IMG/VR virus record: IMGVR_UViG_3300045988_056051
Coordinates: 1 to 35,523 of that record
From: a virus
DNA length: 35,523 bases
Reading direction: 5' to 3' (one strand)
The notes under the pieces were generated by a model. The model was not told the DNA's origin. It saw nothing but the letters and a program-made list of their open reading frames with translations, and ran no database searches. Made by a program: the position numbers and the translations under genes. This document shows positions 2,466-19,489 of the stretch, in pieces; within the stretch, counting starts at the first letter, position 1; each line of letters starts with the position of its first letter.

Positions 2466-2573
2466 GTGGCACTCTATGACCTGATAAACGAGCTACTGCC
2501 TGATGCGCCAGTCTACTACACCGACGAAGAATTGAAAGAACTAACCAATAAGGAGGGAATCGAACTGTTATGA
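2466..2573 (+). CDS. Possible 35-aa small protein, translationally coupled to the next gene
   Basis: GTG at 2466 lies 6 nt after AAGGAG (2454-2459). The frame is open to a TGA at 2571-2573 that overlaps the ATG at 2570 (ATGA). Peptide: (M)ALYDLINELLPDAPVYYTDEELKELTNKEGIELL. It is too short for the ORF track. Confidence 0.3.
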   Translation: MALYDLINELLPDAPVYYTDEELKELTNKEGIELL

Positions 2574-3052
2574 GTATGAGCATTTACGACATCGATGGCG
2601 CAATCATCAAGCTGGTTGACGCGGACACCGGCGAGATTACCGACGAAGAGTCCTTCGACGCTTTGCAGATGGAGCGCTCGAAGAAGATTGAGAACACGGG
2701 CCTTTATTACAAGAACCTCGTTGCCGAGGCGAAGGCAATCAAGGACGAGGAAAAGGTGCTTTCCGAGCGCCGCAAGGCAGTGGAGAACAAGGCCGAGCGC
2801 ATCAAGAACCTTCTCGTTTACGCGCTGAAGGGCCAGAAGTTCGAATCTCCAAGGCTCCGTTGCAGCTACCGCAAAGCCAAGAGCGTTCAGGTCGATGATT
2901 CTTTCGTCGCATGGGCGCGCGAGAACGCCTGCGATTTGCTGACCTTCAAGGAACCTACGCCCGACCGCACGGCAATCAAGGCGGCTCTTGCCGACGGGCG
3001 CGAAATCGAGCACGCCGAAATCGTCACCAACGAGAGCCTTCAGGTGAAGTGA
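2570..3052 (+). CDS. Siphovirus Gp157-like protein (recombination-module accessory, coiled coil)
   Basis: 160 aa. N-terminal IYDIDGAIIKLVD...EESFDALQMERSKKIENTGLYYKNL plus a coiled-coil pattern, sitting directly upstream of the annealase. This matches the Gp157-family arrangement as I recall it. Confidence 0.6.
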   Translation: MSMSIYDIDGAIIKLVDADTGEITDEESFDALQMERSKKIENTGLYYKNLVAEAKAIKDEEKVLSERRKAVENKAERIKNLLVYALKGQKFESPRLRCSYRKAKSVQVDDSFVAWARENACDLLTFKEPTPDRTAIKAALADGREIEHAEIVTNESLQVK

Positions 3053-3053
3053 C

Positions 3054-3560
3054 ATGCGCGAGCTGAGGGCAGACGAAATCGAGGTGCGCGTGGCGCAATG
3101 CAGCCAGAAGGGCGTGGCTCTTCTTCTTTATAAGGACAGCCGCTGCGACATGCGCATCCTCGACGAGACTTTCGGCATGACGGGGTGGCGCGACAGCTAC
3201 CAGAGCATCAACGGCGAGCTGTTCTGCACAATCGAAATCTGGGACGCGGAAAAATCCCAGTGGATTGCCAAGCAGTCGAACGGCACGCCTTCCAACATGG
3301 AAGCCGAGAAGGGGCGCGCCTCGGACGCATTCAAGCGTGCCGGTTTCATGCTGGGAATAGGGCGCGAGCTTTACACAGCGCCTTTCATCTGGGTTCCCGC
3401 CGATAAGTGCAACATCAAGCAGGGGAAGAACGGCCGCTTTCAATGCTATGACAATTTCCGCTGCGAGAAGGTCAGAATCGAGAGCGGCCAGATTACCGGG
3501 CTGAGCATCTACAACGATACGAAGGGTTGCAGGGCATACGTCTTCGCAACCGGCAAATAG
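3054..3560 (+). CDS. Rad52/Sak-family single-strand annealing protein
   Basis: 168 aa. Motifs: YKDSRCDMRILDETFGMTGW and EKGRASDAFKRAGFMLGIGRELY, characteristic of the Rad52/22 family. Confidence 0.85.
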   Translation: MRELRADEIEVRVAQCSQKGVALLLYKDSRCDMRILDETFGMTGWRDSYQSINGELFCTIEIWDAEKSQWIAKQSNGTPSNMEAEKGRASDAFKRAGFMLGIGRELYTAPFIWVPADKCNIKQGKNGRFQCYDNFRCEKVRIESGQITGLSIYNDTKGCRAYVFATGK

Positions 3561-13646: not shown

Positions 13647-14612
13647 ATGGCAATGCAGGGAATCGACATTAGCGGATGGCAGGCGGGAATCGACCTCTCG
13701 AAGGTTCCATGTGATTTCGTAATCGTAAAGGCGACGCAGGGCGTGAATTTCGTTTCTGGCTCCTGTGACTCGCAGGTGCAGCAGGCCATTGCCCTCGGCA
13801 AGCCGTTCGGCTTCTACCATTACGTGGACGGCTCTGGAGCACAGGCAGAAGCTGACTTCTTCATCGACCATTGCGCGGGATACTTCGGCAATGGCATCCC
13901 ATGCATCGACTGGGAGAAAGATGAAAATTCCGCGTGGTGCAATACCGGCTACCTCAAGCAGCTTGTCCAGCGAGTCATCGACCGCACGGGAGTAAAGCCG
14001 CTCATTTACGCTTCGGCTGGACCCTTCCCGTGGGACGTCGCGAAGGCTCTCAATTGCGGCGCATGGGTCGCGCAGTGCGCCGACAACAACGCCACCGGCT
14101 ATCAGGATGCTCCATGGAACGAGGGAGCCTACTCCTGCGCCATTCGCCAGTACTCTAGCCATGGCAGGCTCCCCGGCTACTCTGGCAACCTCGACCTCGA
14201 CAAGGCATACATGGATGCCGCCGCGTGGGCAAAGTACGTGGGCGCGTCGAGCGCCCAGCAGACCGGCTGGATTAAGCAGGATGGCCGCTGGTGGTACAGG
14301 CATGCAGACGGCTCGTATACCAAGAGCGGTTGGGAGAAGATTGACGGCAAATGGTACCTCTTCGATGCTGACGGCTGGATGCTGACCGGATGGCAGCAGG
14401 TCGGCGGCAAGTGGTACTACCTCACCGATTCCGGCGCGATGGCAACCGGATGGGTGAACGACGGCGGCAAGTGGTACTACATGGACCCTGGCACGGGAGC
14501 GATGCACGCGGCTGACGTCGAGAGCATCGGCGGAAAGTGGTATGCCTTCGGCGCGGACGGCGAGATGCAGTATGGCGTGGGTTCCGATGCAAGCGGCGCA
14601 CTGAAGGTGTAG
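13647..14612 (+). CDS. Endolysin: GH25 muramidase plus choline-binding-type cell-wall-binding repeats
   Basis: 321 aa. N-terminus: MQGIDISGWQAGIDLSKV..DFVIVKATQG...FGFYHY. C-terminus: five to six GW..(D/V)GKWYY-type repeats (GWIKQDGRWWY, GWEKIDGKWYLF, GWQQVGGKWYYL, GWVNDGGKWYYM, IGGKWYAF). Confidence 0.93.
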   Translation: MAMQGIDISGWQAGIDLSKVPCDFVIVKATQGVNFVSGSCDSQVQQAIALGKPFGFYHYVDGSGAQAEADFFIDHCAGYFGNGIPCIDWEKDENSAWCNTGYLKQLVQRVIDRTGVKPLIYASAGPFPWDVAKALNCGAWVAQCADNNATGYQDAPWNEGAYSCAIRQYSSHGRLPGYSGNLDLDKAYMDAAAWAKYVGASSAQQTGWIKQDGRWWYRHADGSYTKSGWEKIDGKWYLFDADGWMLTGWQQVGGKWYYLTDSGAMATGWVNDGGKWYYMDPGTGAMHAADVESIGGKWYAFGADGEMQYGVGSDASGALKV

Positions 14613-14633
14613 GCGGCAAGACAACTGAGCAAG

Positions 14634-14678
14634 ACCACCAAGCGGGTCTCGTCTAGTCGGCGAGGCCCGCTTGGTGGT
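14634..14678 (+). other. Long perfect hairpin between the endolysin and HNH genes
   Basis: accaccaagcggg (14634-14646) pairs perfectly with cccgcttggtggt (14666-14678), a 13-bp stem with a 19-nt loop. There is no U-tract. The right arm covers the possible HNH start codons. Confidence 0.6.
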
Positions 14679-15072
14679 TGAAGGGAGGACGCACACGGGA
14701 GCATACAGGGCCTGCAGCAGGTGCGGGAAGATGCATGCATACGGTGAGCCTTGCCCGATGAAGAAGCCAGCCTACAGCTACGAGAGGACGGGAGCGGACA
14801 GGCTGCGCTTCACGTCACGGTGGAAGAGGAAGAGCCTACAGGTCAGGGACGATGCGCACTGGATGTGCGAGGTGTGCCGAGACCAAGGGAAGGTCACGAC
14901 CGAAGGGTTGCAGGTCCACCACATCGAGAAGCTACGCGATGACCCGGACGGGCTGATTGAGGACGGCAACCTCGTGTGCCTATGCATGATGCATCACAGG
15001 ATGGCGGACGATGGCGAGCTTACGAAGTATTACCTGCGCGGGCTTGCGGCCAAGAGGATTGAGGGCTACTAA
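14671..15072 (+). CDS. HNH endonuclease (packaging-associated type)
   Basis: 133 aa. N-terminal zinc knuckle CSRCGK...PCP. HNH core: CEVCRDQGK...VHHIEKL...NLVCLCMMHHRM. The start is uncertain (TTG 14671 or GTG 14674, both inside the hairpin arm). The position upstream of a P27-type terS is typical of cos phages. Confidence 0.85.
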   Translation: MVVEGRTHTGAYRACSRCGKMHAYGEPCPMKKPAYSYERTGADRLRFTSRWKRKSLQVRDDAHWMCEVCRDQGKVTTEGLQVHHIEKLRDDPDGLIEDGNLVCLCMMHHRMADDGELTKYYLRGLAAKRIEGY

Positions 15073-15099
15073 CGCGGGCTATCGTCCTTGGCGGGATGG

Positions 15100-15156
15100 C
15101 ATAGGGGAACGCTGTGGATAACTTGGGGGGGGGAACAATCCCCCCCCTACCCTATG
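15100..15156. other. Nested palindrome with G9/C8 homopolymer arms; candidate cos/terminase recognition element
   Basis: Outer arms CATAGGG (15100-15106) / CCCTATG (15150-15156). Inner arms G9 (15125-15133), AACAAT, C8 (15140-15147). It lies in a 283-bp non-coding region (15073-15355) that also has ATAGGGGAACGC (15101), TATGGGGAA (15152), rc-TATGGGGGAACGC (15306-15319) and GCGATTATC twice. Confidence 0.4.
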
Positions 15157-15355
15157 GGGAATTCGGGCGCGCTGCCGCGCTATCAACAAGCCCCCCACTA
15201 GACACTAAATTTCTTATCTGCTGGGCTTTTTTGGAAAACGGCGGTTTTTGGGCTTAAAACTGCGATTATCATTCAATAAGGGCGATTATCGGGGGATTCT
15301 TTCGAGCGTTCCCCCATAGCGGCTTTCAGAACATAGAGAAGGGAGTTTTCGAGAC

Positions 15356-15949
15356 ATGGAGAAGACAAAAGTCACCTACATGGACGTTGATTCGCTCATT
15401 CCGTACGCGAACAATCCGAGATTGAACGACAACGCGGTTGATGCGGTGGCCGCGAGCATCAAGGAGTTCGGCTTCAAGGTTCCCATCGTCGTTGACGGCG
15501 AGAACGTCATCATCAACGGGCACACGCGGCTGAAGGCTGCGCACAAGCTGGGGTTGAAGCAGGTTCCCGTCATCGTGGCGGACGATTTAACGCCCGAGCA
15601 GGTGAAGGCGTTCCGTCTGGCTGACAACAAGACCAGCGAGCTTGCGGAATGGGATTTGGGCAAGCTGGACATCGAGCTTGCGGAAATCCAAGACCTCGAT
15701 ATGAATGACTTCGGTTTCGATGAGATAGAAGCGAGCGTCGATGACTTCGGCACGGACTTCGAGCTTCCCGACGGCGAGAAAGGCGAGATATGCCAGATGA
15801 CTTTCGCGCTCCACGAGAAGCAGAAAGAGCTGATTGAGTACGCAATCGGGCTAGTGAAGGACGATGTGACGGAGACGTTCGGAAACACGAACCAGAACGG
15901 AAACGCGATATACGAGGTGGTGCGCCAATGGGCAGAGCAAAGGAAATAG
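15356..15949 (+). CDS. ParB/Srx N-terminal (ParB-like nuclease) domain protein
   Basis: 197 aa. Motifs: VDSLIPYANNPRLNDNAVDAVAASIKEFGFKVPIVVD and VIINGHTRLKAAHKLG. The C-terminal half is acidic. No MTase or HTH motif was recognised. Confidence 0.85.
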   Translation: MEKTKVTYMDVDSLIPYANNPRLNDNAVDAVAASIKEFGFKVPIVVDGENVIINGHTRLKAAHKLGLKQVPVIVADDLTPEQVKAFRLADNKTSELAEWDLGKLDIELAEIQDLDMNDFGFDEIEASVDDFGTDFELPDGEKGEICQMTFALHEKQKELIEYAIGLVKDDVTETFGNTNQNGNAIYEVVRQWAEQRK

Positions 15950-16665
15950 AGGTAAGGGTCATCCCGTCATCAATTGCAAACCCCTTTATCAGGCGGCATC
16001 ATTACAGCGGCAAGGTGGTGAATAATTCGAGCCTTCACTTTGGAGCGTTTTTAGACGGCAAGCTTCACGGAGTCCTTTCGTATGGCCCATCCCTCGATAA
16101 GAGTCATATGCTCGGTTTGGTAGAGGGAACCGAATGGAACGGGTTCCTGGAGCTGAATCGCATGGCGTTCGACGAATACCTGCCGAGGAACAGCGAGAGC
16201 TACTGCATCTCAAAGACGCTTAAGTTGATTAAGAAGAACGCGCCGCAAATTAAATGGGTGGTTTCTTTCGCGGACGGATGTTCCTGCGGTGACGGGACAA
16301 TCTACCGTGCAAGCAACTTCGTGCTAACCGGGATAAAGAAAAATAAAGACCTCGCAGTCCTTCCGAGCGGCGAGAAGATTCACAAGATAACGCTTGCTTC
16401 AAACCCAACGATGCCGCGCCCCGAGTTGGGCGGCAGGACATTCTTCGATGTGAACGGAGGAACGTACAATTTCAAAAAGTACGTTGATGCTGCGGGCGGG
16501 ACGGTACTCGTGGGATACCAGCTCCGATATATCTACTTCATCGACAAGAGCTATCGGCAGCGGTTGACCGTCCCCGAGATCCCTTTCTCCAAGATTGACG
16601 AAATCGGGGCGGGTATGTACAAGGGGCAAAAGGTAACGCTGGCCGAACGGCACGTCGGAAAGTGA
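15928..16665 (+). CDS. Mom-like (GNAT-fold) putative DNA base-modification enzyme
   Basis: 245 aa, overlapping the ParB-domain gene by 22 nt (GAGGTGG SD). Motif series: FIRRHHYSG, FGAFLDGKLHGVLSYGP, LELNRMAF, SESYCISKTLKLIKK, VVSFADG...GTIYRASNF. As I recall, this is the pattern of the phage Mu Mom family. No SAM-MTase motifs (DPPY/NPPY/FxGxG) were seen. Confidence 0.6.
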   Translation: MGRAKEIEVRVIPSSIANPFIRRHHYSGKVVNNSSLHFGAFLDGKLHGVLSYGPSLDKSHMLGLVEGTEWNGFLELNRMAFDEYLPRNSESYCISKTLKLIKKNAPQIKWVVSFADGCSCGDGTIYRASNFVLTGIKKNKDLAVLPSGEKIHKITLASNPTMPRPELGGRTFFDVNGGTYNFKKYVDAAGGTVLVGYQLRYIYFIDKSYRQRLTVPEIPFSKIDEIGAGMYKGQKVTLAERHVGK

Positions 16666-16671
16666 TATAAT
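16663..16671 (+). promoter_or_regulatory. Extended -10 promoter upstream of the tRNA-like gene
   Basis: TGaTATAAT at 16663-16671, a perfect TGnTATAAT. The palindrome CGGGCGA-AA-TCGCCCG (16675-16690) follows, and the tRNA-like gene starts at 16695. Confidence 0.55.
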
Positions 16672-16694
16672 TAGCGGGCGAAATCGCCCGACAT

Positions 16695-16769
16695 GCGGCG
16701 CTAGCTCAGTGGCAGAGCGCCCCGAGACCATCGGGGAGACGGGGGTTCGATTCCCACCGCACCGCTCCA
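16695..16769 (+). tRNA. tRNA-like gene (Gly-like scaffold) with a non-canonical anticodon loop; possibly a pseudo- or specialised tRNA
   Basis: Hand-folded. Acceptor GCGGCGC/GCACCGC (one C-A mismatch), discriminator U, encoded CCA. D-arm GCTC-AGTGGCA-GAGC. Anticodon stem CCCCG/CGGGG with loop AGACCAU (G at position 33 instead of U; nominal anticodon ACC). T-arm GGGGG-TTCGATT-CCC(A)CC with a bulged A. Confidence 0.55.
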
Positions 16770-16798
16770 TTACACTACGGAAAAGGGCGGTGGTTTAA

Positions 16799-17173
16799 TT
16801 GGCTGAAAAGCTATCTTTGAACGAGCAGGCGGTCGAGATTCTGCGCATTGCGGAAGAGACTGGCGTGCAGACGAATTTCTTCTTCGTGACAACTTTCAAA
16901 CGGTATCAGGTGCAGCTGAGCAACCTCTCCGAGCTTGAGAAGGCAATCAAGGAGACTGGAACGCTAGTCACGAAAGAGTACGTGAAGGGCCGCGCCAACA
17001 TCTACGTGAACCCAGCGGTCACGGAGTACAACAAGACCACGGACAGCGCGAACCGCACGGTCACCACGCTCATGAAAATCATCAAGGGGTTCGCCAAGGA
17101 GGACGAGGAACGAGATGCGGACTACGACCCGCTCATGGCGATAATCAACGGTGACAGCGATGGCGAGCAATAA
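16799..17173 (+). CDS. terS: Terminase small subunit, P27 family
   Basis: 124 aa with a TTG start (GGTGG SD 6 nt upstream; no in-frame ATG nearby). Motifs: LNEQAVEILRIAEETG...FKRYQVQLSNLSELEKAI...VNPAVTEYNKTTDSANRTV. It overlaps the terL start. Confidence 0.8.
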   Translation: MAEKLSLNEQAVEILRIAEETGVQTNFFFVTTFKRYQVQLSNLSELEKAIKETGTLVTKEYVKGRANIYVNPAVTEYNKTTDSANRTVTTLMKIIKGFAKEDEERDADYDPLMAIINGDSDGEQ

Positions 17174-18845
17174 GGGCTACGAGTATTGCGAGCGTGCGAT
17201 AGACGCGGAAACCACACCGTGCTACGTTAAGAAGCAGATGCGCCTGTGGATGGACGTTTGCGACGGAAAGAGCGACAAATACTTCGTCAGCGACGAGAAG
17301 ATTCGGCAGGTCGAATCAATCCTGAAGCTGCTTATCATGCCGAAGGGCCTGAAGACTGGACAGACGCTCTACGAATGCACGACCGGCTACCAATGGCTGC
17401 TCTACATCGCCGTCCTCTGCACCGTCTACCGTGACAACCCCGAGAAGCGGCGCTACGAAATCGGGCTGCTGGAAATCGCCCGCAAGAACTTCAAGACGTA
17501 CACGGTGGCAACCATCTTCATCATCCTCATGCTGACCGAGCCACGATTCGCGGAGTTCTTCTCTGTCGCGCCAGACGGGGCGCTTTCAAGGCAGATTCGC
17601 GAAGCAATCTCGCAGACGCTGCGCTCGTCCCCGCTAGTCTACGAGTACAAGGGAAACAAACGCTTCAAGATTCTGAACCCGTCAATCACATTCAAGCCGA
17701 AGAGTTCGACATACGTCCCCCTGAGCTATTCAACGTCTCGAATGGATGGCAGACTCCCCAGTGCCTTCTGCGCGGACGAGGTCGGCGCTCTTCCCACGAG
17801 CTACGCGGTCGAAGCGATGAAGTCTGGACAGCTCAACATTCTGAACAAGCTCGGCTTCATCATCAGCACCAAGTATCCGACCATCGACAACCCATTCGAG
17901 GACGAGGTGGCATACGCCAAGAAGGTTCTCGACGGCATTGCCGAAGACGATACGCTGTTCGCCTTGCTCTATGAGCCAGACGAGACGAAGGATTGGATGA
18001 CCGACGATTTGGTCATGCGCCACGCCAACCCCGTGAGTTTGGAGATTTCCGAAATCTGGGAAGACCTGAAGAAGAAACGCGCCTACGCAATCGCGGTCGA
18101 ATCGGCACGCGAGAACTTCCTAACCAAGCACTGCAACATCATCTATCAGGGGCAGGGCACCGAGACGTTCATCGACGTTGCCGACGTTCAGGCCTGCAAG
18201 GTTTCCAACATCGACTGGCGCGGGCGCGTGGTGTATCTAGGCTTAGACTTGTCGGAGACGAACGACAACACGGCGGTCGCTATGGTTGCCGCAGACGATG
18301 ACGGAAACATCCTCGCCGATGTTTTCGCGTTCGTGCCAGAGGGACGCATCCCCGAGAAGAACGCCTACGAGAAGATTGACTACAACGAGTTCGTCAGGGC
18401 TGGGAAGTGCATCGCCTGCGGTGACAGGGTAATCGACTACAAGGTGGTAGAGGACTTCATCCTCGGCATCGAGGAAAAGTACGGCGTGCAGGTGCAGGCA
18501 ATCGGCTACGACCGCTGGAACGCTCTCAGCACCGCGCAGAAGCTGGAGGGCGCGGGATACAACACCGTCGAAATCAGGCAGCATTCGAGCGTGCTCCATA
18601 GCCCGACAAAACTTCTGAAAGAAAAGGTGCTAAACGAAGAGTTTGAATATACGGATAACAAGCTGCTTGAAATAAATTTTCAAAACGCTCGATGCACATA
18701 CGACACGAACCGCAACATGTACGTTACGAAAAAGAAGTCGAAGGGCAAAGTGGACATGTGTGTCGCTCTCATAAACGCTTTATACTTATTGCAACAGGAC
18801 GTTGTTTTCGGTCAGATGCCCGACTTCACCGTTCAAGTCATATAG
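17160..18845 (+). CDS. terL: Terminase large subunit
   Basis: ORF 17151..18845 with the ATG at 17160, about 560 aa. Terminase_1-type layout: an ATPase N-terminal half and a nuclease half (VVYLGLDLSETNDNTAV...GYDRWN...). It sits between terS and portal. Confidence 0.9.
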   Translation: MASNKGYEYCERAIDAETTPCYVKKQMRLWMDVCDGKSDKYFVSDEKIRQVESILKLLIMPKGLKTGQTLYECTTGYQWLLYIAVLCTVYRDNPEKRRYEIGLLEIARKNFKTYTVATIFIILMLTEPRFAEFFSVAPDGALSRQIREAISQTLRSSPLVYEYKGNKRFKILNPSITFKPKSSTYVPLSYSTSRMDGRLPSAFCADEVGALPTSYAVEAMKSGQLNILNKLGFIISTKYPTIDNPFEDEVAYAKKVLDGIAEDDTLFALLYEPDETKDWMTDDLVMRHANPVSLEISEIWEDLKKKRAYAIAVESARENFLTKHCNIIYQGQGTETFIDVADVQACKVSNIDWRGRVVYLGLDLSETNDNTAVAMVAADDDGNILADVFAFVPEGRIPEKNAYEKIDYNEFVRAGKCIACGDRVIDYKVVEDFILGIEEKYGVQVQAIGYDRWNALSTAQKLEGAGYNTVEIRQHSSVLHSPTKLLKEKVLNEEFEYTDNKLLEINFQNARCTYDTNRNMYVTKKKSKGKVDMCVALINALYLLQQDVVFGQMPDFTVQVI

Positions 18846-18859
18846 CGCAAGGCAGAGAC

Positions 18860-19489
18860 ATGAGTTATACGGTATACATGCACATAACACCAAGCGGTAA
18901 AAGATATATCGGCATTACATGCAGGAAGCCAGAATACAGATGGAACAACGGCAAGGGATATGAAGCCAATAAGCACTTTCACAACGCGATTAATAAATAC
19001 GGTTGGGACAACATAAAGCACGTAATCGTATTGAGCGGAGTTTCGAAAGAACGCGCTTGTGAAGTCGAAAAGAACCTTATAAACAAGTTCGACACAACAA
19101 ACAGCGAGAAGGGATACAACCACAGCACTGGCGGTGAATGCGGTGGCGCTGGAGTTGCTTTCACGAAAGAGCGCAGGCGCAAGATAGGTGAAGCCCATAA
19201 GGGCATGAAACATACCGCCGAAGCAAGAAAGAAAATGAGCGAAGCGCATACTGGCTTGCAGACATGGAACAAAGGTCGGCATTGGACGTCAGCCGAAAAA
19301 GAAGTAATGGCGGCAGCTCAAAGGACTCACAAGGAAATTAGATGCGTTGAGACGGGGGCGACATACCTGAGCACAAGGGACGCAGAGAGAAAAACGGGGA
19401 TAAACCGCTCTTCGATATGCGGCTGCTTGCGCAAGAGGAAGAACTGCAAAACAGCAGGCGGTTACCACTGGGAATACGCGCAGAATTAA
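18860..19489 (+). CDS. Free-standing GIY-YIG homing endonuclease with NUMOD-type DNA-binding repeats
   Basis: ATG at 18860 inside ORF 18692..19489. Motifs: YTVYMHITPSGKRYIGIT (GIY-YIG), EKGYNHSTGG, repeated K.GEAHKGMKHT/KMSEAHTG (NUMOD3-like), and C-terminal GGYHWEY. It is visibly AT-richer than its flanks. Confidence 0.88.
   Translation: MSYTVYMHITPSGKRYIGITCRKPEYRWNNGKGYEANKHFHNAINKYGWDNIKHVIVLSGVSKERACEVEKNLINKFDTTNSEKGYNHSTGGECGGAGVAFTKERRRKIGEAHKGMKHTAEARKKMSEAHTGLQTWNKGRHWTSAEKEVMAAAQRTHKEIRCVETGATYLSTRDAERKTGINRSSICGCLRKRKNCKTAGGYHWEYAQN

What the first reader, a model, noticed from the sequence alone, without database searches (positions are those of the whole stretch)
15356..16665. 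Overlapping ParB-nuclease-domain gene and Mom-like (GNAT-type) gene: candidate two-component DNA hypermodification / anti-restriction module between HNH-cos and terS
Seen in sequence: two genes overlap by 22 nt. The first (197 aa) has ParB/Srx N-domain motifs (LIPYANNPR, INGHTRLKAA) and an acidic tail, but no methyltransferase or HTH domain that I can see. The second (245 aa) lacks SAM-MTase motifs. It carries the ordered motifs RRHHYSG, FGAF-DGKLHGVLSYGP, LELNRMA, SESYCISKTLK and VVSFADG..GTIYRASNF, which I associate with the phage Mu Mom family (acyl/GNAT-like fold). Established knowledge: Mu Mom converts adenine to N6-carbamoylmethyladenine and protects phage DNA from restriction. ParB-like domains are frequently fused to phage DNA methyltransferases. 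Inference: here the usual MTase partner of a ParB domain is replaced by a Mom-like enzyme encoded as a separate, translationally coupled gene. This would be a DNA-modification system whose chemistry, target and need for the ParB partner are, to my knowledge, uncharacterised. The pair also interrupts the normally tight HNH-cos-terS arrangement, which is typical of acquired cargo.
Basis: partly seen in the sequence, partly recalled or inferred. Interest (0 to 1): 0.78.

Follow-up and report, generated by a model that had tools for sequence, protein, structure and literature searches.

The report
Phage ParB–Mom–tRNA-Gly DNA modification cassette
Just ahead of its DNA-packaging genes, this gut-bacterial phage carries an enzyme of the phage Mu Mom family (which attaches glycine from charged tRNA to DNA adenines to block restriction), overlapped by a ParB-like helper gene and followed by its own odd glycine tRNA; the same three-part layout recurs in many unrelated phages and looks like a self-supplied DNA-modification kit.

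Summary
Two ORFs overlap by 22 nt: a 197-aa ParB/Srx N-domain protein and a 245-aa Mom-family GNAT (Pfam Mom E=6e-51; the model's top PDB match is Mu Mom 8bv8).

This matters because Mu Mom was recently shown to use Gly-tRNAGly as its glycyl donor.

In three divergent clades a ParB gene abuts Mom in 73-80 of about 80 loci each; in the Mu clade, 0 of 44. Three of three ParB homologs retrieved independently also sit next to Mom. A tRNA-Gly-like element lies within 300 nt in 63%, 60% and 19% of loci, and in 0% of Mu-clade loci.

These tRNAs keep the GlyRS identity elements. Most lack U33 and have an irregular T-stem, so they are probably donor tRNAs rather than decoders.

ParB-linked Moms keep six catalytic residues but never have Mu's essential R151, nor W48 or W181. 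The ParB resembles the helper that phage thymine dioxygenases require.

The module occupies a conserved slot upstream of terS-terL and is not random cargo.

Verdict: a real, widespread and uncharacterised variant of momylation. ParB dependence, tRNA dedication and the chemical product are inferred, not shown.

The parts
15356..15949 (+). ParB/Srx-type partner gene (197 aa). It has a nucleotide-binding N-domain (res ~1-92), an acidic disordered linker (~93-150) containing a conserved ELPDG motif, and a small two-helix C-terminal domain (~151-197). It has no HTH DNA-binding domain.
   Evidence: Pfam ParB_N E=1.6e-7. phrog_620 E=7e-55 and phrog_498 (ParB-MTase fusions) E=4.7e-44. AF2 model: N-domain pLDDT 70-87, residues 93-150 below 50. 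In Foldseek the N-domain superposes on CTP-bound MxParB 7bnk/7bnr (rmsd 2.3-2.4 A), Noc, BsParB, CcParB and KorB, over only ~92-105 aligned columns. Invariant positions N19 N20 R22, G55 H56, D90 N91, L137-G140 and the CTD motif come from the 59-sequence alignment.
15928..16665 (+). Mom-family GNAT gene (245 aa), the predicted aminoacyl-tRNA-dependent DNA adenine N6-glycyltransferase. It keeps the equivalents of Mu H58, Y59, R111, S124, D149 and Y159. It has Cys at Mu R151, Ser at W48 and Lys at W181. It carries a C-terminal extension (~205-245, the 'GAGMYKG' motif) that Mu Mom lacks.
   Evidence: Pfam Mom PF25680 E=6.3e-51. PDB 8bv8 E=2.6e-26. AF2 model pLDDT 88, pTM 0.82. Foldseek top hit 8bv8, E=1.8e-19, TM 0.64-0.77 over 219 columns; the next GNATs score about 3e-5. 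Residue table.
15928..15949 (+). 22-nt overlap between the ParB 3' end and the Mom 5' end, consistent with translational coupling.
   Evidence: Overlaps of 22/28/34 nt (window clade), 17/14/4 nt (Microbacterium clade) and 22/28/14 nt (Psychrobacter clade) are the rule.
16662..16694 (+). Conserved leader between the mom stop codon and the tRNA. It holds an extended -10-like TGATATAAT that overlaps the stop codon, then a GCGGGCGAAATCGCCCG hairpin. It is a candidate promoter or processing signal for the tRNA.
   Evidence: Read from the sequence. Nearly invariant (one substitution, in L317) in the four closest relatives. The generic sigma-70 scan found no full -35/-10 promoter, so this assignment is weak.
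16695..16769 (+). tRNA-Gly-like gene (75 nt, CCA encoded). G1-C72, C2-G71, G3-C70, U73, C35 and C36 are present. The anticodon loop is AGACCAU (G33 in place of the universal U33; A34). An unpaired A (or mismatch) disrupts the T-stem, and the acceptor stem has a C5.A68 mismatch. It is the predicted glycyl donor for the Mom-like enzyme.
   Evidence: ARAGORN tRNA-Gly(acc). Rfam tRNA 29.9 bits against a gathering score of 29. The loop and T-stem are identical in four relatives, whose overall nt identity to the window is 95-97% for the tRNA versus 81-87% for mom. Family-wide linkage to ParB-Mom pairs.
14671..15072 (+). Context: HNH endonuclease gene upstream, followed by a 283-nt non-coding region (15073-15355) that may hold cos.
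   Evidence: phrog_144 HNH endonuclease E=1.3e-17. No Pfam hit at E<=1e-3.
16799..18845 (+). Context: terS-like gene (16799-17173) and terL (17151-18845) immediately downstream. This is the conserved 'ParB-terminase' position of the module.
   Evidence: Terminase_4 E=2e-4 (weak); TerL_nuclease E=9e-42 plus TerL_ATPase. The same order is seen in relatives and holds in at least 62% of loci.

Best explanation
This is a three-part phage cassette for tRNA-dependent hypermodification of DNA adenine ('momylation'). It is a ParB-linked variant of the Mu Mom system.

Proposed mechanism:
1. The ParB-like gene and the Mom-like gene are expressed together, coupled through their 22-nt overlap. They sit just before the packaging genes, so they are probably expressed late.
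2. The adjacent tRNA is made and is charged with glycine by the host GlyRS. It keeps the bacterial glycine identity set (G1-C72, C2-G71, G3-C70, U73, C35, C36, 3' CCA).
3. Its anticodon loop (G33, A34) and its disrupted T-stem make it a poor substrate for EF-Tu and the ribosome. The charged tRNA is therefore a reserved glycyl donor, like the non-proteinogenic tRNAGly that feed the Fem transferases in Staphylococcus.
4. The Mom-like GNAT transfers the glycyl group to N6 of adenine in double-stranded phage DNA. As in Mu, the adduct then rearranges to N6-carbamoylmethyladenine and blocks host restriction enzymes.
5. The ParB-like protein has a nucleotide-binding N-domain, a disordered acidic linker and a small C-terminal domain, but no DNA-binding domain. 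It acts as an obligatory or stimulatory partner that assembles or activates Mom on DNA. The model is the ParB-like partner required by a subclass of phage thymine dioxygenases. It would compensate for what ParB-linked Moms lack relative to Mu Mom: R151 and the W48 dimer contact.

Shown here: family memberships, fold, conserved catalytic residues, the gene linkages and the tRNA features.

Inferred: glycine as the group transferred, the product, ParB dependence, exclusion of the tRNA from translation, and timing.
For: Mom membership:
-.
- H58, Y59, R111, D149 and Y159 are invariant, and S124 is Ser or conservatively Thr, in 212 distinct sequences from four clades.
- Published mechanism of Mu Mom: Gly-tRNAGly donor, dsDNA adenine N6, on-base rearrangement; R111, S124, D149 and R151 essential; W48 needed for dimerisation (PMC13219725).

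ParB linkage:
- ParB lies immediately upstream in 78/81, 80/81 and 73/79 loci of clades only 26-50% identical in Mom, against 0/44 in the Mu clade.
- Overlapping stop/start is the rule.
- Three of three ParB homologs retrieved independently have Mom next door.
- One contig encodes a ParB-N-domain::Mom in-frame fusion.
- ParB-linked Moms never have Arg at Mu R151, nor W48 or W181, whereas the Mu, JD024, pAEv1818, PX29 and SWEP2 clades (no ParB) keep R151.

ParB type:
- Same architecture and substitutions as the ParB-like activators of phage 5mYOX: N-domain + unstructured segment + CTD, no DBD; Mx Q52->N20, E93->H56, E126->D90, R130 not conserved.
- The ParB linker and CTD track Mom divergence better than the N-domain does (rho 0.61 and 0.53 versus 0.23; weak evidence).

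tRNA linkage:
- Of the tRNAs ARAGORN calls within 300 nt of a pair, 47 are Gly-like and 2 are other. Further away the counts are 3 and 15 (Fisher p=2.9e-10).
- With an nhmmer profile, a tRNA-Gly-like element is present in 42/67, 32/53 and 12/63 unique loci, and in 0/22 Mu-clade loci.
- It occurs downstream on the same strand, downstream on the opposite strand, or upstream of ParB, which argues for linkage rather than a single ancestral accident.

tRNA features:
- Stems covary (12/16 pairs compensatory) while G1-C72, C2-G71, G3-C70, C35 and C36 stay fixed; T at the discriminator position (U73) is near-invariant (>=90% of sequences).
- U33 is present in only 13/34 distinct sequences, against 14/17 control tRNAs.
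- A canonical 5-bp T-stem is present in 5/31, against 16/20 controls; in 20 a single unpaired A restores 5 bp.
- Rfam tRNA scores are 26-53 bits, against 48-68 for controls.
- Some anticodon arms are collapsed to a triloop.
- The tRNA is the best-conserved DNA in the neighbourhood.

Precedent: the GlyRS determinants, the control of EF-Tu affinity by T-stem pairs 49-65, 50-64 and 51-63, and dedicated non-proteinogenic tRNAGly are all documented in PMC7826273.
Against: - There are no experimental data for any ParB-linked Mom.
- Two metagenomic Mom homologs were active alone in E. coli (PMC13219725). I could not determine their class, so ParB may be dispensable.
- Mu Mom works with all host tRNAGly isoacceptors, so a phage tRNA is not strictly required. 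About half of the ParB-Mom loci, and 81% of the Microbacterium clade, show no adjacent tRNA-like element.
- Some Mom-adjacent tRNAs look fully canonical, for example Microbacterium phage Bush tRNA-Gly(ccc).
- The window's tRNA has an acceptor-stem mismatch that its relatives lack and is borderline for Rfam, so this particular copy could be impaired.
- Loss of R151 is not exclusive to ParB-linked Moms: Melnitz and Polaribacter phages lack both R151 and ParB.
- The loci are the 80 best matches per query from metagenomic viral contigs, de-replicated only at the nucleotide level, so the counts are phylogenetically non-independent.
- NTP binding by this ParB is inferred from fold and partial motif conservation only (GHTR in place of GERR).
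Confidence: 0.6

Rival explanations
1. The module has two components only. The tRNA-Gly is an ordinary phage decoding tRNA. It either rides along in the hot spot upstream of terS or simply tops up the host tRNAGly pool that momylation drains. It is not a dedicated, non-decoding donor.
For: - Mu Mom uses any host tRNAGly isoacceptor.
- About half of ParB-Mom loci have no adjacent element.
- Some adjacent tRNAs are canonical: Bush tRNA-Gly(ccc), the L081 loop CU[CCC]AG, and five with regular T-stems.
- Phages commonly carry tRNAs.
Against: - Isotype specificity is extreme (47 Gly-like versus 2 other near the pair; p=2.9e-10) and independent of orientation.
- 21/34 lack U33, 26/31 have irregular T-stems, some have 6- or 8-nt loops or no anticodon loop at all, and the non-bacterial anticodon ACC recurs in three clades.
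- The GlyRS identity elements stay fixed meanwhile.
- A pool-replenishing tRNA would still count as functionally part of the module.
Confidence: 0.2
2. The ParB-like protein works independently of Mom. It might act in packaging or pac/cos recognition, in partition of a plasmid-like prophage, or as a nuclease or anti-defence factor. The two genes are neighbours only because both sit in the 'ParB-terminase' slot, and Mom acts alone, as in Mu.
For: - ParB-terminase loci exist with other cargo such as methyltransferases.
- ParB diverges much faster than Mom and appears to be shuffled: ParB is 34-66% identical where Mom is 62-78%.
- Some loci carry two tandem ParB genes.
- Published homologs were active alone.
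Against: - Adjacency is near-obligate and overlapping in three clades, including Microbacterium phages, where in phage Bush the pair sits among replication genes rather than packaging genes.
- The reciprocal test gave 3 of 3, and a natural ParB-N::Mom fusion exists.
- Residues essential in Mu Mom are systematically lost only where ParB is present or, rarely, elsewhere.
- This ParB has no DNA-binding domain.
- There is a direct experimental precedent: the same kind of ParB is required by phage 5mYOX.
Confidence: 0.2
3. The Mom-like enzyme of the ParB-linked class has diverged in chemistry or target. It might use a different acyl or aminoacyl group, stop at glycyl-adenine without rearrangement, modify another base, or act on RNA or protein. 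In that case the product would not be Mu-type N6-carbamoylmethyladenine.
For: - R151, essential in Mu and placed next to the flipped adenine in the published AF3 model, is never Arg in this class. W181 and W48 also differ.
- This class has an extra conserved C-terminal extension.
- The co-substrates of GNATs cannot be predicted from structure.
Against: - Six other active-site residues are invariant or, at S124, conservatively Ser/Thr, across all clades.
- The fold, including the Mom-specific insertion, matches 8bv8 over 219 columns.
- The linked tRNA is specifically tRNA-Gly, which points to glycine.
- In Mu the rearrangement is an on-base, energetically favourable step that needs no extra enzyme.
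Confidence: 0.12
4. The tRNA-like element is not a donor. It could be an RNA-processing or insulating signal between the mom and terS transcripts, or a tRNA whose altered anticodon loop evades or decoys host anticodon nucleases.
For: - It sits at a fixed position 3-30 nt after the mom stop codon, usually on the same strand.
- It has a conserved leader hairpin.
- Phage tRNAs with altered anticodon loops that escape host tRNA-cleaving defences have been reported (from my own knowledge; not checked here).
Against: - Neither idea explains why the element is always glycine-type, with fixed acceptor identity elements, U73, C35C36 and often an encoded CCA.
- Neither explains why it can lie on the opposite strand or upstream of ParB.
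- Neither explains why it is absent next to ParB-less mom genes.
Confidence: 0.08

Closest known systems
Phage Mu Mom (methylcarbamoylase; PDB 8bv8; Pfam PF25680)
   Same: - Same family and fold: 34% identity, Foldseek E=1.8e-19, TM up to 0.77, including the Mom-specific insertion.
- H58, Y59, R111, S124, D149 and Y159 are conserved.
- Expected to share the same donor (Gly-tRNAGly) and target (N6 of adenine in dsDNA), per PMC13219725.
   Different: - Mu mom stands alone at the genome end under Com/Dam/OxyR control, with no ParB gene and no tRNA (0/44 and 0/22).
- The window enzyme lacks Mu's essential R151 (Cys here), the dimerisation residue W48 (Ser) and W181 (Lys).
- It has a ~40-aa conserved C-terminal extension.
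- It overlaps a ParB-like gene and lies next to terS-terL.
ParB-dependent phage thymine dioxygenases (5mYOX clade E plus a ParB-like regulator; O'Toole et al., bioRxiv 10.1101/2025.08.14.668559)
   Same: - A short phage ParB with a nucleotide-binding N-domain, a 30-50-aa unstructured segment and a C-terminal domain, but no DNA-binding domain.
- Closest structures are MxParB and CcParB.
- The same substitutions: Q52->N, E93->H or D, R130 lost.
- It is paired with a post-replicative DNA base-modifying enzyme, and a ParB-independent sister class exists.
   Different: - The partner enzyme is a GNAT aminoacyl-transferase acting on adenine, not an Fe/2OG dioxygenase acting on thymine.
- ParB dependence is demonstrated for 5mYOX but only inferred here.
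- No tRNA is involved in the 5mYOX system.
Phage ParB-methyltransferase fusions and the 'ParB-terminase large subunit locus' (Iyer/Aravind; PMC4738411)
   Same: - Same type of ParB N-domain (phrog_498, E=4.7e-44).
- Same genomic slot immediately upstream of the terminase genes, predicted to modify DNA in connection with packaging.
   Different: - Here the modifying enzyme is a separate, overlapping gene and is a Mom-type GNAT rather than a SAM methyltransferase.
- I could not read the original 2013 paper, so I cannot exclude that Mom was already listed among the cargo of such loci.
Non-proteinogenic tRNAGly of Staphylococcus feeding the FemX/FmhB-FemA-FemB transferases (PMC7826273)
   Same: - Extra tRNAGly genes keep the GlyRS determinants (G1-C72, C2-G71, U73, C35, C36).
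- They have T-stem features that weaken EF-Tu binding, so that Gly-tRNA is channelled to a GNAT-fold aminoacyl-transferase outside translation.
   Different: - The Staphylococcus tRNAs are cellular, keep a normal anticodon loop and have weak but regular T-stem pairs. Their acceptor substrate is the peptidoglycan precursor.
- The phage tRNAs are virus-encoded, often lack U33 or even a 7-nt loop, and carry an unpaired A or mismatch in the T-stem. The presumed acceptor is DNA.
- The phage tRNAs' charging and EF-Tu behaviour are untested.
DpdA-DpdB of the bacterial 7-deazaguanine DNA modification system (from my own knowledge; not checked with the tools)
   Same: A ParB-like NTPase (DpdB) is required for a DNA base-modifying enzyme (DpdA) to act on double-stranded DNA.
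   Different: - The enzyme family (tRNA-guanine transglycosylase-like), the base (guanine) and the biological role (host restriction-modification-like island) all differ.
- No tRNA donor is involved.

Membership tests
Mom family (Pfam PF25680; prototype phage Mu Mom) | Significant full-length match to the family profile | tested here: met
   PF25680 E=6.3e-51, 173 bits against a 27.1 cut-off, profile positions 2-202 of 202. phrog_1384 E=8e-52.
Mom family (Pfam PF25680; prototype phage Mu Mom) | GNAT fold with the Mom-specific insertion, closest in structure to Mu Mom | tested here: met
   AF2 model pLDDT 88. Foldseek top hits 8bv8_B and 8bv8_A at E=1.8e-19 and 6.7e-19, TM 0.64-0.77 over 219-220 columns; the next GNATs score E~3e-5.
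Mom family (Pfam PF25680; prototype phage Mu Mom) | Active-site residues H58, Y59, R111, S124, D149 and Y159 | tested here: met
   All are present in the window protein. Five are invariant and S124 is Ser or Thr in 212 sequences from four clades.
Mom family (Pfam PF25680; prototype phage Mu Mom) | R151 (essential in Mu), the W48 dimer contact, and W181 | tested here: not met
   The window has C, S and K at these positions. R151 is never Arg in ~176 ParB-linked sequences but is always Arg in the Mu clade. These residues therefore define the Mu-like subgroup rather than the Pfam family. Melnitz and Polaribacter Moms also lack R151.
Mom family (Pfam PF25680; prototype phage Mu Mom) | Uses Gly-tRNAGly to modify N6 of adenine in dsDNA, giving N6-carbamoylmethyladenine | not testable with these tools
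   Indirect support only: a specifically linked tRNA-Gly gene. LC-MS and in vitro assays are needed.
ParB/Srx superfamily (Pfam PF02195 ParB_N) | ParB N-terminal domain by sequence and fold | tested here: met
   PF02195 E=1.6e-7, above its cut-off. Sequence hits to Noc and ParB structures. Foldseek to MxParB, Noc, BsParB, CcParB and KorB at rmsd 2.2-2.6 A.
Canonical partition ParB (ParABS CTPase clamp) | GERRxRA CTP-binding box, the Q of box I, and ENLQR box III | tested here: inconclusive
   The window has GHTRLKA, ANNPR and DNKTSE. The Gly, one Arg and the Asn are retained, while the catalytic Q and E are replaced by N and H. The same pattern is seen in 5mYOX-associated ParBs that are functional activators. 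Nucleotide binding is untested.
Canonical partition ParB (ParABS CTPase clamp) | Central HTH parS-binding domain; a partner ParA; a parS site | tested here: not met
   Only ~92-105 residues align to ParB structures; the next ~55 residues are disordered. There is no HTH Pfam hit. No parA-like gene was noted among the features examined near the pair, though ParA was not searched for specifically. This is not a partition ParB.
ParB-like activators of phage DNA-modifying enzymes (5mYOX-associated ParB type) | NBD + unstructured segment + CTD architecture without a DBD; Q52->N and E93->H/D; encoded next to the enzyme | tested here: met
   for architecture and motifs. for adjacency.
ParB-like activators of phage DNA-modifying enzymes (5mYOX-associated ParB type) | The partner enzyme is inactive without ParB | not testable with these tools
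   Inferred from the loss of R151 and W48 in ParB-linked Moms and from one natural fusion.
tRNA-Gly (bacterial type) | Cloverleaf with covarying stems; GlyRS identity set G1-C72, C2-G71, G3-C70, U73, C35, C36; 3' CCA | tested here: met
   ARAGORN and Rfam calls. 12/16 pairs covary while the identity positions stay fixed in 31 diverse sequences. The determinants are as listed in PMC7826273.
Elongator (decoding) tRNA | 7-nt anticodon loop with U33 and purine 37; regular 5-bp T-stem; a bacterial Gly anticodon (GCC/UCC/CCC) | tested here: not met
   The window has G33, the anticodon ACC, and a T-stem with 4 canonical pairs plus an unpaired A. Class-wide, U33 is present in 13/34 and a canonical T-stem in 5/31. 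Rfam scores are 26-53 bits against 48-68 for controls. Actual decoding ability is untested.

The most novel reading that the evidence does not exclude
Many phages encode a self-contained DNA-aminoacylation kit made of three parts:
- a Mom-class GNAT that is catalytically incomplete on its own;
- a DNA-binding-domain-less ParB-like NTP switch that assembles or activates it on DNA next to the packaging machinery;
- a virus-encoded, non-decoding tRNAGly that host GlyRS charges but translation ignores.

The tRNA would be the first viral 'non-proteinogenic' tRNA dedicated to DNA modification. If this is right, the linked-tRNA signature (and any variants with other identities) could be used to predict the amino acid that Mom-like enzymes install on DNA.
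Probability: 0.4. Interest if true: 0.85.

Novelty: new variant of a known kind. Interest (0 to 1): 0.74.

Why it matters
- **Independent support for the Mom mechanism.** Mom was a decades-old puzzle. Its use of Gly-tRNAGly was published only in 2023/2026, and for a single enzyme described as 'scavenging' host tRNA. The gene linkage found here is independent, purely genomic support for that mechanism across several bacterial phyla.
- **A large uncharacterised class.** Each query found 379-433 relatives among viral contigs, and the protein searches saturated at 8000 hits. Hosts range from gut Clostridia to Treponema, Prevotella, Pasteurellaceae and Actinobacteria. This class differs from Mu in three testable ways: a ParB-like partner, loss of R151 and W48, and a private tRNA.
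- **A more general role for ParB-like helpers.** If ParB dependence holds, ParB-like NTP switches would become a general accessory for phage DNA-modifying enzymes (methyltransferases, dioxygenases, now aminoacyl-transferases).
- **A new kind of viral tRNA.** If the tRNA is a dedicated donor, it is a new class of viral tRNA with a non-translational job. That would explain some 'degenerate' phage tRNAs that tRNA finders miss.
- **Practical consequences.** Such phage DNA would resist many restriction enzymes and would give unusual nanopore and SMRT signals. This is relevant to gut virome sequencing and to phage engineering.

Tried and rejected
- **NCBIfam.** It has no model that hits the Mom-like protein.
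- **Promoter scan.** The generic sigma-70/terminator scan found no promoter in 14600-17300. The extended -10 I note upstream of the tRNA is my own reading of the sequence and is weak.
- **My script for the 71 tRNA-like elements.** The quick script that extracted acceptor, anticodon-loop and T-stem features mis-registered many non-canonical elements. I discarded its statistics and rely on the ARAGORN-anchored tables.
- **Covariance model.** I did not build one for the tRNA class, because MAFFT mis-aligns the T-arm indels. I used iterated nhmmer instead.
- **Published active homologs.** I tried to determine whether 'Homolog A/B' of the Mom paper are ParB-linked. The supplements are not held and the sequences are not in the text.
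- **Iyer et al. 2009 and 2013.** I tried to read these Aravind-lab papers for a prior ParB-Mom description. They are not held. Full-text searches for ParB+Mom or Mom+tRNA-Gly linkage found nothing relevant.
- **tRNA as an integration site.** Rejected. The serine recombinase gene is 15 kb away, and the tRNA keeps its position next to mom in unrelated phages.
- **L030 as a second ParB-Mom fusion.** Rejected. It is a rearranged or duplicated locus with tandem mom copies.
- **Strict 'no ParB means R151' rule.** Rejected. Melnitz and Polaribacter phages lack both.

Full report
**Observation**

The two ORFs exist exactly as described. ORF 15356-15949 (+, 197 aa) and ORF 15928-16665 (+, 245 aa) overlap by 22 nt, and all quoted motifs are present.

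Profile searches confirm both assignments. The first protein matches Pfam ParB_N (E=1.6e-7), phrog_620 (E=7e-55) and the N-terminal part of phage ParB-methyltransferase fusions (phrog_498, E=4.7e-44). The second matches the whole Pfam Mom profile (PF25680, E=6.3e-51) and phrog_1384 'Mom-like'. By sequence it hits only one PDB entry, the Mu Mom crystal structure 8bv8 (E=2.6e-26).

A confident AF2 model (pLDDT 88, pTM 0.82) has 8bv8 as its top structural match by far: E=1.8e-19, TM up to 0.77, 219 aligned columns. Generic GNATs follow at about 3e-5.

The window is a temperate phage or prophage of the gut-Clostridia type. It encodes a large serine recombinase, a holin and a GH25/choline-binding endolysin. 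The order then runs HNH, ParB, Mom, terS, terL, a GIY-YIG homing endonuclease and portal. Relatives of the Mom-like protein occur in Oscillospiraceae, Christensenellales, Treponema, Prevotella and other genomes.

ARAGORN finds a single tRNA in the window. It is a tRNA-Gly at 16695-16769, 30 nt after the mom stop codon.

This matters because of recent work (bioRxiv 2023; Nat Commun 2026, PMC13219725). That work showed that Mu Mom takes glycine from Gly-tRNAGly and puts it on N6 of adenine in dsDNA. The adduct then rearranges on the base to N6-carbamoylmethyladenine. R111, S124, D149 and R151 are essential, W48 is needed for dimerisation, and a Mom-specific insertion is required.

That paper never mentions ParB or phage-encoded tRNA. 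It describes Mom as scavenging host tRNAGly.

**ParB-Mom linkage**

I fetched the 80 closest viral-contig loci for four Mom queries: the window protein, Mu Mom, a Microbacterium-phage homolog (27% identical to the window protein) and a Psychrobacter-phage homolog (50%).

A ParB-like ORF lies immediately upstream on the same strand in 78/81, 80/81 and 73/79 loci of the three non-Mu sets, and in 0/44 of the Mu set. The ParB stop and Mom start overlap in nearly all cases.

From the ParB side, three homologs retrieved with a ParB profile all have a Pfam-Mom gene overlapping their 3' end, followed by a small gene, terL and portal (five places, including Rodentibacter prophages). One contig encodes a ParB N-domain fused in frame to Mom. 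Six loci have two tandem ParB genes.

The module sits directly upstream of a terL-like gene in at least 62% of loci in all three clades, with a median gap of 360-470 nt, enough for terS. The window's closest relatives have the same holin-lysin-HNH-ParB-Mom-tRNA-terS-terL-portal order. This is the 'ParB-terminase locus' slot described earlier for phage methyltransferases (PMC4738411). It is not a cargo insertion.

**Two classes of Mom**

I aligned 212 distinct Mom sequences. H58, Y59, R111, D149 and Y159 are invariant in all four clades, and S124 is Ser or, conservatively, Thr. Mu R151 is Arg in 36/36 Mu-clade sequences and never Arg in the ParB-linked clades (C/T; Q/N/S/V; T/C/A/S). W48 and W181 are likewise confined to the Mu clade.

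Further ParB-less phage Moms (JD024, pAEv1818, PX29, SWEP2) keep R151. Melnitz and Polaribacter phages lack both R151 and ParB, so the rule runs one way only.

ParB-linked Moms of the window and Psychrobacter clades also share a conserved C-terminal extension that Mu lacks.

**The ParB partner**

The AF2 model shows a ParB N-domain (residues 1-92), a ~55-residue disordered acidic linker and two C-terminal helices. Only the N-domain matches solved structures: CTP-bound M. xanthus ParB, Noc, B. subtilis and Caulobacter ParB, and KorB. There is no HTH DNA-binding domain.

Relative to MxParB, the window protein has N20 for Q52, H56 for E93, D90 for E126, and no R130.

This is exactly the architecture and substitution pattern reported for the ParB-like proteins without which a subclass of phage thymine dioxygenases (5mYOX clade E) is inactive. 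For that family a ParB-independent sister class also exists (bioRxiv 10.1101/2025.08.14.668559).

An ELPDG motif in the linker and a TFxLHxxQ...NxNGNA motif in the C-terminal domain are invariant in 59 homologs. The linker and CTD track Mom divergence better than the N-domain does (rho 0.61 and 0.53 versus 0.23; weak evidence).

**tRNA linkage**

Counts below use unique loci.
- Of the tRNAs ARAGORN calls within 300 nt of a ParB-Mom pair, 47 are Gly or Gly-like and 2 are other.
- Further away the counts are 3 and 15 (Fisher p=2.9e-10).
- An nhmmer profile iterated from 31 of these tRNAs finds many that ARAGORN misses.
- Final occupancy is 42/67 (63%), 32/53 (60%) and 12/63 (19%) in the three ParB-linked clades, and 0/22 in the Mu clade.
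- None of six other ParB-less Mom phages has a tRNA-Gly-like element next to mom.

The element is usually 3-30 nt after the mom stop on the same strand. It can also be on the opposite strand (for example Microbacterium phage Bush) or upstream of ParB.

**tRNA features**

The 31 aligned sequences are only 66% identical on average. G1, G3, C35, C36 and the 3' acceptor G71-C72 are invariant in the 31-sequence alignment; C2 and the T at the discriminator position (U73) are near-invariant (>=90%). The D stem, the anticodon stem and acceptor pairs 4-7 covary (12/16 pairs with compensatory changes). G1-C72, C2-G71 and G3-C70 never change partner type.

These fixed positions are the bacterial GlyRS identity elements (PMC7826273).

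By contrast, the decoding features are degraded:
- U33 is present in only 13/34 distinct sequences (A16, G4, C1), against 14/17 control tRNAs from the same loci.
- Position 37 is a pyrimidine in 13/34.
- The non-bacterial anticodon ACC recurs in all three clades.
- Some elements have 6- or 8-nt loops, or an anticodon arm reduced to a triloop hairpin.
- Only 5/31 have a regular 5-bp T-stem, against 16/20 controls. In 20, a single unpaired A in the 3' strand restores 5 bp with covarying flanks.

That irregularity lies within the three T-stem pairs that set EF-Tu affinity. Rfam tRNA scores are 26-53 bits for Mom-adjacent tRNAs, with several undetected and the window at 29.9. Control tRNAs score 48-68 bits.

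The window's own tRNA, with loop AGACCAU and the unpaired A, has an identical loop and T-stem in four relatives. Their tRNA and flanking intergenic DNA are 95-97% identical to the window, whereas mom is 81-87% and parB ~91%. The tRNA region is thus the best-conserved DNA there. The window copy has one acceptor mismatch (C5.A68) that the relatives lack.

**Interpretation**

The best-supported reading is a three-part momylation cassette:
- a Mom-class glycyltransferase;
- a ParB-like accessory of the kind already shown to activate another phage DNA-modifying enzyme;
- a phage tRNAGly selected for charging but not for decoding.

The tRNA is analogous to the staphylococcal non-proteinogenic tRNAGly that supply the Fem transferases.

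Shown here: family membership, fold, residue conservation and loss, gene linkage and tRNA anatomy.

Inferred: glycine transfer, the final product, ParB dependence, NTP use by ParB, escape of the tRNA from EF-Tu, and the anti-restriction role.

**Main caveats**
- Two published metagenomic Mom homologs are active alone, and their class is unknown to me.
- About half of the ParB-Mom loci lack a detectable tRNA-like element.
- Some linked tRNAs are canonical.
- The loci are best-hit samples and are phylogenetically non-independent.
- I could not read Iyer et al. 2013, which may already list Mom among ParB-terminase cargo.
- Full-text searches found no paper linking Mom with ParB or with a phage tRNA-Gly gene.

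**Verdict**

The system is a new variant of a known kind: ParB-linked, tRNA-equipped momylation. It is widespread and directly testable. Interest is about 0.74.

Noticed in passing
window 18857-19489 (+): A GIY-YIG/NUMOD3 homing-endonuclease gene sits between terL and portal. The terL-portal gap is 659 nt here but only 11-29 nt in the four closest relatives (L317-L320). This is a window-specific mobile insertion.
   Followed up: partly
L042:4842-4916, L044:3434-3510, L052:4973-5045: A second odd tRNA-like family lies 230-530 nt upstream of ParB in some window-clade loci. Its acceptor is GCAGACG...CGUCUGC with discriminator A and CCA. All three lack U33, and ARAGORN calls them Ile(aat) or Arg(ccg). 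Their T-stems are regular. Identity and function are unknown.
   Followed up: no
L007, L010, L011, L013, L020, L025 (e.g. L007:266-967 and 865-1557): Six loci carry two tandem ParB-like genes upstream of Mom, in the order tRNA-Gly - ParB1 - ParB2 - Mom. This may indicate a heterodimeric ParB partner.
   Followed up: no
L053:5671-6705 (same contig as L264): A single 345-aa ORF fuses a ParB N-domain (~95 aa, without linker or CTD) in frame to a full Mom domain, and the usual tRNA-Gly-like element follows. It is seen on only one metagenomic contig, so a deletion or assembly artefact cannot be excluded.
   Followed up: partly
L030:354-3236: This locus has three Mom-like ORFs. Two are in tandem, and one ends with the ParB C-terminal tail sequence. 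ParB fragments are also present. It is a duplication/rearrangement or a mis-assembly.
   Followed up: no
window 16662-16694: An extended -10-like TGATATAAT overlaps the mom stop codon and is followed by a GCGGGCGAAATCGCCCG hairpin just before the tRNA. The segment is nearly invariant in four relatives (one substitution). It may be a tRNA promoter or processing signal, although the generic promoter scan did not call it.
   Followed up: partly
window 15073-15355 (hairpin 15127-15145; terminator-like 15241-15263): The 283-nt non-coding region between HNH and ParB holds a perfect G7-loop-C7 hairpin (GGGGGGGAACAATCCCCCC) and a terminator-like stem-loop. It gave only a sub-threshold Rfam hit (Ocean-VII, 16 bits). 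This could be the cos region or a transcription boundary.
   Followed up: no
L136:1526-1599, L150:2175-2245, L190:1986-2053 and others (Microbacterium clade): In several loci the stop-to-stop Mom ORF runs through the tRNA-like element, so the homology ends about 70-80 nt before the stop codon. L150 also has a second copy of the element at its left end, apparently a terminal repeat of the contig.
   Followed up: no
L243:4771-4843, L272:4775-4845: These tRNA-Gly-like elements have an anticodon arm collapsed to a 6-bp stem with a 3-nt loop and no CC. They keep the GCG...CGCUCCA acceptor and the T-stem with the unpaired A. If they are charged, GlyRS would have to rely on the acceptor alone.
   Followed up: no
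L326 (Arthrobacter phage SWEP2, 2468-3334); L324 (Melnitz, 2492-3301); L002 (Microbacterium phage Bush gp48): Mom-family genes are annotated in public records as 'endolysin', 'DUF465' and 'acetyltransferase'. According to its genome paper, Psychrobacter phage Y8A has a second, separate Mom homolog (ORF69) in addition to the ParB-linked one.
   Followed up: no
L324 (Melnitz), L325 (Polaribacter phage P12002L): These Mom homologs lack both Arg at Mu position 151 and a ParB gene within 2.5 kb. In Polaribacter the upstream neighbour is a DNA methyltransferase. They may represent a third mode of operation.
   Followed up: partly
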